Positions 26,667-28,364 of a stretch of 64,000 nucleotides of DNA are shown here, one piece after another. The notes beneath the pieces were generated by a model that was not told the DNA's origin, did no database searches, and saw only the letters and a list, made by a program, of their open reading frames with translations. The translations under genes and the position numbers were made by a program. This stretch comes from the human T2T-CHM13v2.0 reference genome, Homo sapiens. The stretch is from assembly GCF_009914755.1 (NCBI RefSeq), contig NC_060927.1. One strand, written 5' to 3'. The first letter of the stretch is position 1. Each line of letters begins with the position of its first letter.

Positions 26667-27885
26667 TGAGAGGTGACAGCGTGCTGGCAGTCCTCACAGC
26701 CCTCGCTCGCTCTGGGCGCCTCCTCTGCCTGGGCTCCCACTTTGGTGGCACTTGAGGAGCCCTTCAGCCCACTGCTGCACTGTGGGAGCCTCTTCTGGGC
26801 TGGCCAAGGCCGGAGCCCGCTCCCTCAGCTTGCAGGGAGGTGTGGAAAGAGAGGTGGGAGCGGGAACTGGGGCTGCGCGCGGCGCTTCCGGGCCAGCTGG
26901 AGTTCCGGGTGGGCGTGGGCTTGGCGGGCTCTGCACTCGGAACAGCCGGCCGGCCCCGCCGGCCCCAGGCAATGAGGGGCTTAGCACCCGGGCCAGCAGC
27001 TGTGGAGGGTGTACTGGGTCCCCCAGCAGTGCCAGCCCACCAGCGCTGCGCTCGATTTCTCACCGGGCCTTAGCTGCCTTCCCGTGGGGCAGGGCTCGGG
27101 ACCTGCAGCCCGCCATGCCTGAGCCTCCCACCCGCTCTGTGGGCTCCTGTGTGGCCGGAGCCTCCTCGACAAGCGCCACCCCCTGCTCCACGGCGCCCAG
27201 TCCCATCGACCACCCAAGGGCTGAAGAGTGCAGGCGCATGGCGCGGGACTGGCAGGCAGCTCCATCTGCAGCCCCGGTGGGAGATCCACTGGGCGAAGCC
27301 AGCTGGCCTCCTGAGTCTGGTGGGGACGTGGAGAATCTTTATGTCTAGCTCAGGGATTGTAAATACACCAATCAGTGCCCTGTCAAAACAGACCACTCGG
27401 CTCTACCAATCAGCAGGAAGTGGGTGGGGCCAGATAAGAGAATAAAAGCAGGCTGCCCCAGCCAGCAGTGGCAACCCGCTGGGGTCACCTTCCACACTGT
27501 GGAAGCTTTGTTCTTTTGCTCTTTGCAGTAAATCTTGCTACTGCTCACTCTTTGGGTGCACACTGCTTTTATGAGCTGTAACACTCACCGTGAAGGTCTG
27601 CAGCTTCACTCCTGAAGCCAGCGAGACCAGGAGTCCACTGGGAGGAACGAACAACTCCAGACGCACCGCCTTAAGAACTGTAACACTCACTGCGAAGGTC
27701 TGCAGCTTCACTCCTGAGCCAGCGAGACCACGAACCCACCGTAAGGAAGAAACTCCGAACACATCCGAACATCAGAAGGAACAAACTCCAGACGCGCCAC
27801 CTTAAGAGCTGTAACACTCACCGCCAGGGTCCGCGGCTTCATTCTTGAAGTCAGAGAGACCAAGAACCCACCAATTCCGGACACC
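26667..27885 (+). mobile_element. ERV9 solo LTR (LTR12C)
   Basis: Starts TGAGAGGTGACAGCGTGCTGGCAGTCC and ends CCAATTCCGGACAC(C). CpG-rich U3, three ~100-bp repeats at 27573-27885, TSD CTAT at 26663-26666 and 27886-27889. Confidence 0.96.
27340..27475 (+). promoter_or_regulatory. LTR12C core promoter (GTAp63 promoter)
   Basis: CCAAT at 27368 and 27406, GGGTGGGG at 27422, AGATAA at 27432, TATA-equivalent AATAAA at 27441-27446. The TSS is inferred near 27470. Confidence 0.82.
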
Positions 27886-27906
27886 CTATCAGAGATTTTG
27901 AAAACT

Positions 27907-27962
27907 ATGAAGTGCTGGGAACAGAGAGACTGGACAGCCTTCACAAAGGTGGGGAAACCTTG
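27907..27962 (+). CDS. TP63: Alternative upstream first coding exon of TP63 (GTAp63 N-terminus MKCWEQRDWTAFTKVGKP-C, phase 2)
   Basis: aaaactATG (A at -3) lies 21 nt after the LTR end, followed by 18 codons plus TG and a perfect donor GTAAGT at 27963. The phase equals that of TA exon 1, so it can join exon 2 in frame. Matches the described ERV9-LTR-driven testis isoform. Confidence 0.88.
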
Positions 27963-28364
27963 GTAAGTACTCAGTTTTCAGTTGAAACCCAAGAAGATAA
28001 AAATCTAAAGGACCATGCATTAAGAGTAAGGACTATGCCTCCAAAATATGGGTAAAGCTGAAATAAATATGACTTAATATTAATAGGACTTACACATAGT
28101 CCAAAACCAGTACCTGACAGGTTTAAAGAGATATGCTCAAACTCTCTACCAGAGGAAATTTTAATCCTTTTAGGAGGAAGATAATATTATGTAGAATCTC
28201 AAAGATGTTTTGTCCAAAACTTCTAAAATCAAATTTAAAATGACAAAATGTGGTAAAAATAGAATCAAATGATCAAAACCTTAGAGAAATAGGTAGATAA
28301 TTGAAACAGATTCATAGGTGGTTTAGATAATGTAGTTATGAGAAACTTAAAAATAGCTAGAATT

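What the first reader, a model, noticed from the sequence alone, without database searches (positions are those of the whole stretch)
26667..27968. Retroviral LTR12C as alternative promoter and first exon of TP63 (GTAp63), ~35 kb upstream of the TA promoter
Seen: an intact LTR promoter, then an ATG in good context 21 nt past the LTR, 18 codons plus TG, and a perfect GTAAGT donor in the same phase 2 as TA exon 1 (CG|gt). Splicing to exon 2 would swap [21 protein letters not shown] for MKCWEQRDWTAFTKVGKPC. Established: ERV9-LTR-driven GTAp63 isoforms are described in the male germ line of humans and great apes. This is the main biological system here, but it is known rather than new. The ORF track misses it.
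Basis: partly seen in the sequence, partly recalled or inferred. Interest (0 to 1): 0.85.

Follow-up and report, generated by a model that had tools for sequence, protein, structure and literature searches.

The report
Known retroviral promoter of TP63 (GTAp63)
This is the already published solitary ERV9 (LTR12C) retroviral repeat that serves as a germ-line promoter and first exon of the human p63 gene, so the reading is correct but not new.

Summary
Window 26667-27885 is a 1219-nt solo LTR of the ERV9/LTR12 family. It has a 4-bp target-site duplication (CTAT) and keeps the family's core promoter motifs. The RefSeq start at 27470 lies inside the family's usual start-site motif. Exon U1 (27470-27962) is R-U5 of the LTR plus 77 nt of flank. 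The ATG at 27907 opens 18 codons plus TG and ends at TTG|GTAAGT, in the same phase as TA exon 1.

I located TP63 exon 2 at window coordinate 168383. Its first base is T, so the junction reads Cys. The frame then continues [21 protein letters not shown]..., which gives the published 19-residue GTAp63 N-terminus.

Published GTAp63 primers map exactly onto the LTR/flank junction, exon 1 and exon 2. The papers read describe the isoform, its testis expression, NF-Y binding and HDAC/DNMT-inhibitor induction. Hence: already known.

Corrections and additions:
- The 19 residues are not retroviral, because the ATG lies outside the LTR.
- The start context is A at -3 but A at +4.
- The leader carries one short uORF.
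- The LTR's own poly(A) hexamer is the minority AGTAAA form.
- A candidate exon U2 lies at 53886-54010.

The parts
26663..26666 (+). 5' copy of the 4-bp target-site duplication (CTAT)
   Evidence: The same tetramer follows the LTR at 27886-27889. All 7 other copies examined also carry their own 4-bp duplications.
26667..27885 (+). Solo ERV9 LTR (LTR12C by the published RepeatMasker label), 1219 nt, with TG at the 5' end and CC (family: CA) at the 3' end
   Evidence: The own-genome search gave 4407 first-look candidates, of which 40 were scored; the best non-self match was 93% identical over 1-1218. Homology limits in 7 of 7 copies. The review table lists an LTR12C of 1218 nt as a TP63 promoter. 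GC is 0.62, with 60 CpG and o/e 0.51, against window values of 0.38 and 0.18.
26667..27469 (+). U3. The 5' part (26667-27300) is GC- and CpG-rich. The core promoter holds GTGGGGA (27320), CCAATCAG boxes (27368, 27406), GGGTGGGG (27422), AGATAA (27432) and the TATA-like AATAAAA (27441)
   Evidence: Motif coordinates. CCAAT lies 35 nt before AATAAAA and AATAAAA 29 nt before the annotated start. This matches the family description (NF-Y site about 37 nt from the TATA box; AATAAAA about 30 nt upstream of the TSS).
27461..27472 (+). Start-site motif GCCAGCAGTGGC, containing the RefSeq transcript start at 27470
   Evidence: position; the review says the TSS of active LTR12C copies is frequently found in this motif, at about 70% of LTR length; here it is at 0.659.
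27470..27962 (+). TP63 exon U1 (493 nt): R-U5 of the LTR (27470-27885) plus 77 nt of flanking host DNA
   Evidence: RefSeq exon in the table given with the finding.. The U1 forward primer spans the LTR/flank junction at 27874-27894.
27527..27532 (+). The LTR's own poly(A) hexamer in R, here AGTAAA, 57 nt after the start. A CA at 27545-27546 and a T/G-rich stretch follow
   Evidence: 5 of 7 relatives have AATAAA at the homologous place, 1 has AGTAAA and 1 has neither. Genome-wide, the exact 19-mer with AGTAAA has 82 places and with AATAAA 1140. Its role as a poly(A) signal is inferred from LTR layout and was not tested.
27569..27871 (+). Three U5 repeats of about 70 nt (starts 27569, 27671, 27802)
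   Evidence: identity 100/70/81% to the first copy. The review describes 72-bp U5 repeats. TRF did not report them.
27571..27615 (+). Upstream ORF in the leader (ATG plus 13 codons plus stop), weak context (T at -3)
   Evidence: The same ATG-bearing repeat start is present in 4 of 7 relatives, so it is a family trait.
27886..27889 (+). 3' copy of the target-site duplication (CTAT)
27907..27962 (+). GTAp63-specific coding segment: ATG, 18 codons (MKCWEQRDWTAFTKVGKP) plus TG. It is encoded by non-LTR flank
   Evidence: It lies outside the homology of 7 of 7 LTR copies. It completes to Cys with the first base (T) of exon 2.
27963..27968 (+). 5' splice site GTAAGT (exon/intron TTG|GTAAGT)
   Evidence: Published MaxEntScan score is 10.47, against 8.56 for exon 1. 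The intron to exon 2 is 140,420 nt.
62207..62268 (+). Coding part of TA exon 1 ([20 protein letters not shown] plus CG), the segment that U1 replaces
   Evidence: The tryptic peptides MNFETSR and [14 protein letters not shown] are reported by mass spectrometry. The exon 1 primer maps at 62228-62248.

Best explanation
A solitary ERV9 LTR (LTR12C) inserted about 34.6 kb upstream of the TA promoter of TP63 acts as an alternative promoter. Its U3 supplies NF-Y (CCAAT), GATA and G-rich sites and a TATA-like AATAAAA. Transcription starts in the family's GCCAGCAGTGGC motif at 27470. The RNA runs through R and U5, past the LTR's own weak, cap-proximal poly(A) hexamer, into 77 nt of host flank. There, an ATG (27907) and a strong GTAAGT donor (27963) already lie in the right phase. 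Splicing over 140 kb to exon 2 skips exon 1. It replaces the 21 residues of the TA* N-terminus by 19 others (MKCWEQRDWTAFTKVGKPC), followed by the shared [18 protein letters not shown] and the TAp63 body. [quoted passage not shown] The CpG-rich LTR is normally silenced and is switched on by HDAC and DNMT inhibitors. Shown here: the element's limits, its motifs, the frame and the in-frame junction. Taken from print: transcription, tissue, inducibility and protein function. Inferred: bypass of the LTR's poly(A) site, and use of ATG 27907 in vivo.
For: Anatomy: LTR limits and the 4-bp duplication; promoter motifs and their spacing against the family description. Exon 2 was found as the single match in 200 kb, on either strand, to a pattern built from the published residue numbers F22/W31/Y35/M40. 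Its first base is T and it has a pyrimidine-rich acceptor. Identity with the published system: review Table 1 lists an LTR12C (hg38, 1218 nt) as a TP63 promoter. The GTAp63 mutant numbering W9' F12' V15' W29' Y33' fits the translation. Three published primers each map exactly once. The passages read state that U1 spliced to exon 2 is the predominant product with a 19-residue N-terminus, that there is more than 1000-fold induction by HDAC inhibitors and NF-Y ChIP signal on this LTR, and that GTA-p63 is induced more than 1270- to 5000-fold by decitabine plus SB939.
Against: No expression data can be examined with these tools, so promoter use, the splice junction and tissue specificity rest on RefSeq and on papers. 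The primary paper (Beyer et al. 2011, PNAS) and its follow-up (Cell Cycle 2011) are not held and were seen only through citing papers. In the passages I read, no GTA-specific peptide or antibody evidence was given; one paper says no GTA-specific antibody exists. Use of ATG 27907 in vivo is therefore inferred. The leader has a uORF, and +4 is A, so the start context is not optimal. The label LTR12C comes from print; no repeat library was on hand to test the subfamily.
Confidence: 0.96

Rival explanations
1. The LTR drives transcripts, but the U1 ATG is not the functional start. Translation would begin at the exon 2 Met (plain TAp63), or the RNAs would be mostly non-productive (uORF, U1-U2 forms with a TGA at the junction). 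The LTR would then change only expression, not the protein.
For: There is one uORF in the leader, and the main ATG has A rather than G at +4. A U1-U2-exon 2 form as abundant as U1-exon 2 is reported in glioblastoma cells, with a stop after 18 residues in the U1 frame. No GTA-specific antibody exists. No GTA peptide was reported in the mass-spectrometry passages I read.
Against: ATG 27907 is the first in-frame ATG, has a purine at -3 and is open to the donor in the correct phase. The uATG has a weak context and its ORF ends 291 nt before the main ATG, which allows leaky scanning or reinitiation. Expressed GTAp63 behaves differently from TAp63 in dimer stability and transactivation, which shows that the extension matters if it is made.
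Confidence: 0.1
2. The element is only one of thousands of LTR12C copies that fire as cryptic start sites under epigenetic drugs or in tumours, and its TP63 transcript has no physiological role.
For: LTR12C copies are broadly activated by DNMT and HDAC inhibitors. At least 4407 related places exist in this genome. The LTR is CpG-rich and described as normally methylated.
Against: Citing papers report high expression in normal human testis and spermatogenic precursors and loss in testicular cancer. The frame and phase match to exon 2 gives a complete protein rather than a truncated product.
Confidence: 0.05
3. The 19 GTA-specific residues are encoded by the U5 region of the retroviral LTR, so that the protein is a virus-host chimera, as a 2011 commentary states.
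For: This is stated in the commentary (main text read up to the reference list). [quoted passage not shown]
Against: Homology to 7 of 7 other LTR copies ends at 27884-27892, and the target-site duplication follows at 27886-27889; the ATG is at 27907. The 2025 paper places the ATG between the LTR12C and a LINE, and the donor inside the LINE. Only the 5' untranslated part is retroviral.
Confidence: 0.01

Closest known systems
GTAp63 / TP63 exon U1 driven by an ERV9 LTR (Beyer et al. 2011, PNAS; seen only through citing papers)
   Same: It is the same locus, not a relative. This is shown by the LTR12C entry for TP63 in the review table, by exact primer matches, by the 19-residue N-terminus and the mutant numbering, and by U1-to-exon 2 splicing that skips exon 1.
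   Different: Nothing differs in kind. This assembly's copy is 1219 nt between the duplications, against 1218 nt in the hg38 RepeatMasker interval.
Other LTR12C alternative promoters (GBP2, GBP5, CGREF1, SchLAP1, CADM2, IRGM, TNFRSF10B and others; review Table 1)
   Same: These are solo LTRs that supply NF-Y/GATA sites, the AATAAAA box and the GCCAGCAGTGGC start site, and they respond to HDAC/DNMT inhibitors. The 7 copies compared here share the architecture and 4-bp duplications.
   Different: At TP63 the flank happens to provide an in-frame ATG and donor, so the protein N-terminus changes as well as the expression. The R hexamer here is the minority AGTAAA form.
TA*p63 (exon 1 start, 39-residue extension)
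   Same: It has the same splice phase and the same shared 18 residues from exon 2. Both extensions stabilise the closed dimer and add transactivation capacity.
   Different: It uses a different promoter and a different first 21 versus 19 residues. The TA* peptides were seen by mass spectrometry; I found no such report for GTA in what I read.

Membership tests
ERV9 LTR (LTR12 group, subfamily LTR12C) | Full-length nucleotide homology to other genomic copies of the family | tested here: met
   4407 first-look candidates, 40 scored, colinear matches over 1-1218 of 1219 at 85-93% identity; 7 of 7 loaded copies align at 91-92.5% over the whole element.
ERV9 LTR (LTR12 group, subfamily LTR12C) | LTR termini TG...CA flanked by a 4-bp target-site duplication | tested here: met
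   5' TG is present and CTAT is duplicated on both sides. The last base is C instead of A (7 of 7 relatives end in CA), read as a point change.
ERV9 LTR (LTR12 group, subfamily LTR12C) | U3 with CCAAT, GATA and GTGGGGA-type motifs; AATAAAA about 30 nt before a start site within GCCAGCAGTGGC | tested here: met
   Searches give the positions; searches give the family description. Only 3 of 7 relatives keep exact matches to all five motifs scanned, and this copy keeps all of them.
ERV9 LTR (LTR12 group, subfamily LTR12C) | U5 with repeats of about 72 nt | tested here: met
   three copies of about 70 nt, with starts at 27569, 27671 and 27802.
ERV9 LTR (LTR12 group, subfamily LTR12C) | Assignment to subfamily C rather than LTR12, B, D, E or F by a repeat library | not testable with these tools
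   No Dfam or Repbase library is on hand. The label is taken from review Table 1 and.
GTAp63 first exon (U1) | Exon begins in R of the LTR and ends at a donor spliced to TP63 exon 2 in frame | tested here: met
   The RefSeq exon is 27470-27962 (table given with the finding). Phase and frame. The exon 2 first base T gives Cys and then the shared peptide. The splicing itself is from print.
GTAp63 first exon (U1) | 19-residue N-terminus with W9, F12, V15, then W29 and Y33 in the shared part | tested here: met
   The translations place W, F, V, W and Y at exactly these numbers, which are cited.
GTAp63 first exon (U1) | Expression in the male germ line; presence only in humans and great apes | not testable with these tools
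   No transcript data or primate genomes are available here. These points are stated.

The most novel reading that the evidence does not exclude
The TP63 copy carries the minority AGTAAA form of the LTR's own poly(A) hexamer, 57 nt after the start site. In an identical 19-nt context there are 82 such places against 1140 with AATAAA. A weakened internal poly(A) signal may have helped this solo LTR become a productive gene promoter, by letting transcripts reach the donor 436 nt further on. If so, exapted LTR12C promoters as a class might be enriched for such variants. I could not test enrichment. Among Table 1 promoters whose state I could read, matching loci only by approximate coordinates and length, GBP2, GBP5, CGREF1 and SchLAP1 appear to be AATAAA and CADM2 (L005) AGTAAA. 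That is far too few to decide.
Probability: 0.12. Interest if true: 0.3.

Novelty: already known. Interest (0 to 1): 0.1.

Why it matters
The locus is a textbook case of a retroviral LTR co-opted as a tissue-specific promoter that also changes a protein's N-terminus. It concerns a p53-family guardian of the male germ line and a target of epigenetic cancer drugs. The report adds only precision. It gives exact limits of the LTR and shows directly that the 19 isoform-specific residues and the donor are host flank, not virus. That contradicts one commentary and agrees with a 2025 paper. It also places exon 2 and a candidate exon U2 on this assembly.

Tried and rejected
(1) Tandem Repeats Finder on 26000-28500 reported only three short arrays and missed the U5 repeats; the repeat finder found them.

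(2) The primary papers could not be read: the PNAS 2011 paper by DOI and by PMC id, and the Cell Cycle 2011 paper by DOI, are not held.

(4) I tried to confirm the published statement that the flank after the LTR is LINE-derived. Own-genome DNA searches with 27886-28340 and with 25867-26666 found only the query itself. The search with 27886-28685 was dominated by a roughly 300-nt high-copy repeat at about 28345-28675. The tool skips very common words and scores only 40 candidates, so this neither supports nor refutes a LINE origin. The stop-to-stop ORFs of the flank were listed but not taken further.

(5) Rfam at gathering thresholds on 26000-28700 gave 0 matches.

(6) A full-text search for the GTA peptide and the candidate U2 peptide as strings found 0 papers.

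(7) The Genome Biology 2025 paper that holds both 'LTR12C' and 'TP63' mentions TP63 only as a transcription factor and is not relevant.

(8) Scans for exon U2 gave 10 rows under strict rules and 13 rows under loose rules, one of which was part of exon 1 itself. Two serious candidates remain and could not be separated without the paper's Figure S3.

(9) An enrichment test of AGTAAA among known LTR12C promoters was abandoned. The AATAAA list is cut after 100 of 1140 places, and there is no coordinate lift-over between assemblies.

Full report
**Observation**

The stretch 26400-28200 was read directly and parsed by script. A GC-rich element begins with TGAGAGGTGACAG at 26667. The RefSeq exon given with the finding, 27470-27962, is 493 nt and holds two ATGs.
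- The ATG at 27571 (context GCTTTTATGA) opens a 14-codon uORF.
- The ATG at 27907 (context AAAACTATGA) is open for 18 codons (MKCWEQRDWTAFTKVGKP) plus TG, up to the exon end.
- The donor is TTG|GTAAGT.

TA exon 1 codes from 62207 to 62268, that is [20 protein letters not shown] plus CG, with donor GCG|GTGAGT. Both first exons therefore end after two bases of a codon. The two transcript starts lie 34,610 nt apart. The only softening is that the start context has A at -3 but A, not G, at +4.

**Limits and nature of the element**

A DNA search of the window's own assembly with 26667-27885 gave 4407 first-look candidates, of which 40 were scored. Many matches were colinear over positions 1-1218 of 1219, at 85-93% identity.

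I aligned the element with 60 nt of flank on each side against the 7 other copies that were loaded (L002-L008). In 7 of 7, homology (91-92.5%) began at query 55-61 and ended at 1278-1286. That corresponds to window 26661-26667 and 27884-27892.

Printing the junctions showed the following.
- All 7 relatives begin with TG, end with CA, and are each flanked by their own 4-bp duplication.
- The TP63 copy is flanked by CTAT (26663-26666 and 27886-27889) and ends in CC instead of CA.

It is therefore a solo LTR of 1219 nt.

A 2025 review lists 'LTR12C chr3:189595943-189597160, (alternative) promoter of TP63', an interval of 1218 nt (passages read). The subfamily label comes from that table; I had no repeat library to test it.

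**Internal anatomy**

| Feature | Position | Source |
|---|---|---|
| GTGGGGA | 27320 | |
| CCAATCAG boxes | 27368, 27406 | |
| GGGTGGGG | 27422 | |
| AGATAA | 27432 | |
| AATAAAA | 27441 | |
| GCCAGCAGTGGC (contains annotated start 27470) | 27461-27472 | |
| U5 repeats of about 70 nt | starts 27569, 27671, 27802 | |

The proximal CCAAT lies 35 nt before AATAAAA. AATAAAA lies 29 nt before the annotated start, which sits at 0.659 of the LTR length.

This matches the family description in print.
- The TSS of active LTR12C copies is frequently found within GCCAGCAGTGGC, at about 70% of the LTR.
- An AATAAAA lies about 30 nt upstream of the TSS.
- The LTRs carry NF-Y/GATA-2/MZF1 sites and 72-bp U5 repeats.
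- A conserved NF-Y site lies 37 nt from the TATA box.

Of the 7 relatives, only 3 keep exact matches to all five scanned promoter motifs. 'Intact promoter' is therefore a fair description of this copy.

The LTR has GC 0.62, with 60 CpG (o/e 0.51). Its flanks have o/e 0.14-0.20 and the window as a whole has 0.18. This fits the described silencing by methylation. Rfam gave no match in 26000-28700.

**The junction to exon 2**

Exon 2 lies outside the window, so I fetched the next 200 kb. I scanned both strands for an AG acceptor followed by codons for F, W, Y and M at the spacing implied by the published TA* numbering (F22, W31, Y35, Met 40).

There was exactly one match, at window coordinate 168383, which is position 4383 of L019.
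- It has a pyrimidine-rich acceptor, tttcatttttgtccttttaag|T.
- The exon is 129 nt long and ends at ACA|GTAAGT.
- Its first base is T, so TG|T reads Cys and CG|T reads Arg.
- The frame continues [18 protein letters not shown] and then [25 protein letters not shown].

The U1-exon 2 intron is 140,420 nt.

**Identity with the published system**

'GTAp63' occurs in 31 held papers, and 'LTR12C' together with 'TP63' in 10. The points below come from passages read.
- Exon U1 arises from the LTR insertion and is spliced directly to exon 2, skipping exon 1. The residues mutated in GTAp63 are W9', F12', V15', W29' and Y33'. These numbers fall exactly on my translation.
- The 5' part of U1 overlaps the ERV9 LTR. 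U1-exon 2 is the most abundant form, with a 19-residue N-terminus, and the isoform is confined to humans and great apes.
- HDAC inhibitors induce LTR12-driven TP63 more than 1000-fold, and NF-Y ChIP-seq signal covers the LTR12 upstream of TP63.
- Decitabine plus SB939 induce GTA-p63 more than 1270-fold in T98-G cells and more than 5000-fold in U87-MG cells.
- The ATG lies between the LTR12C and a LINE, the donor lies in the LINE, and the MaxEntScan score is 10.47 against 8.56 for exon 1.

The primer table in that paper's supplement gives a U1 forward primer, an exon 1 forward primer and an exon 2 reverse primer.
- The U1 forward primer matches the window once, at 27874-27894, across the LTR/flank junction.
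- The exon 1 forward primer matches once, at 62228-62248.
- The exon 2 reverse primer matches once, inside the exon 2 I located.

The TA* tryptic peptides reported by mass spectrometry ([21 protein letters not shown]) equal the exon 1 translation.

The primary paper (Beyer et al. 2011) and the Cell Cycle follow-up are not held. What I say of them is second-hand.

**One correction to print**

A 2011 commentary states that the 19 residues derive from the U5 region, making the protein a virus-host chimera (main text read up to the reference list). The limits above place the ATG 21 nt beyond the LTR and its duplication. Only the 5' untranslated 416 nt are retroviral. This is not new, because the 2025 paper says the same from the genome browser.

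I could not confirm that the flank is LINE-derived. Searches of the own genome with 27886-28340 and with 25867-26666 returned only the query itself, and the tool's sensitivity limits make that inconclusive.

**Mechanism**

Shown here: the promoter architecture, the start-site motif, the leader with one family-inherited uORF (present in 4 of 7 relatives), the ATG, the donor and the in-frame junction.

From print: transcription in spermatogenic precursors, inducibility, NF-Y dependence of LTR12 promoters, and the effect of the extension on p63 dimer stability and transactivation.

Inferred: that the RNA bypasses the LTR's own poly(A) site, and that ATG 27907 is the start used in vivo. No GTA-specific antibody exists, and I saw no GTA peptide evidence in the passages read.

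**Side observations**

*Poly(A) hexamer.* The hexamer at the expected poly(A)-signal place in R (27527) is AGTAAA.
- Among the 7 relatives, 5 have AATAAA, 1 has AGTAAA and 1 has neither.
- Genome-wide, the exact 19-mer with AGTAAA has 82 places (33 forward, 49 reverse). One of them is at C3:192413521-192413539, the window's own site at 27521-27539.
- The 19-mer with AATAAA has 1140 places (566 forward, 574 reverse).
- The reversed control patterns had 0 places.

A weak internal signal might ease read-through, but I have no test of this and no evidence of enrichment among exapted copies.

*Candidate exon U2.* A scan for an exon that begins with A (so that U1's TG completes a stop) and holds its own ATG in the right phase gave 13 rows. 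The row that best fits the paper's wording is 53886-54010.
- It lies upstream of exon 1, encodes 20 residues, and matches TA-p63 from the 21st residue on.
- It is 125 nt long, with acceptor ccttccag|A and donor AAG|GTAAAT.
- Its ORF reads MSEREVQQQLSYGLKLTKG plus S.

A 105-nt rival lies at 120782-120886, outside the window. This remains tentative.

**Verdict**

Interest for discovery is low; its value is as a validated positive control.

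Noticed in passing
window 27527-27532: The LTR's own R-region poly(A) hexamer is AGTAAA, a minority state. The exact 19-mer context with AGTAAA occurs 82 times in this genome, against 1140 times with AATAAA. Of 7 close copies, 5 have AATAAA, 1 has AGTAAA and 1 has neither. It may ease read-through to the U1 donor; this was not tested.
   Followed up: partly
window 53886-54010: Candidate TP63 exon U2 (125 nt), which is not in the RefSeq table given with the finding. 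It has acceptor ttgccttccag|A, its first base A turns U1's TG into a stop, its own ATG at 53952 reads MSEREVQQQLSYGLKLTKG plus S in phase with exon 2, and its donor is AAG|GTAAAT. It fits the text description in PMC12154421. A rival candidate lies at window coordinate 120782-120886, outside the window.
   Followed up: partly
window about 28345-28675: A roughly 300-nt high-copy repeat on the + strand with an A-rich tail, about 380 nt downstream of the U1 donor. It gave 10,540 first-look candidates and matches of 77-82% identity. It looks Alu-like; that name is recalled, not tested.
   Followed up: no
window 27571-27615: A 14-codon uORF in the first U5 repeat of the GTAp63 leader. The ATG-bearing repeat start is shared by 4 of 7 related LTR copies, so LTR12C-driven mRNAs may commonly carry it.
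   Followed up: partly
window 27316-27383 versus other genomic copies: Many other family copies match in two pieces (query 1-717 and 650-1218) with extra copies of the 650-717 segment. They therefore carry more U3 repeats containing the CCAAT box than the TP63 copy, which is at the short end of the family.
   Followed up: no
L005 (C3:85569075-85570288) and L006 (C2:181174729-181175948): By approximate coordinates and length, these two close relatives appear to be the LTR12C promoters listed in the review for a short CADM2 variant and for SchLAP1. This identity was not verified.
   Followed up: no
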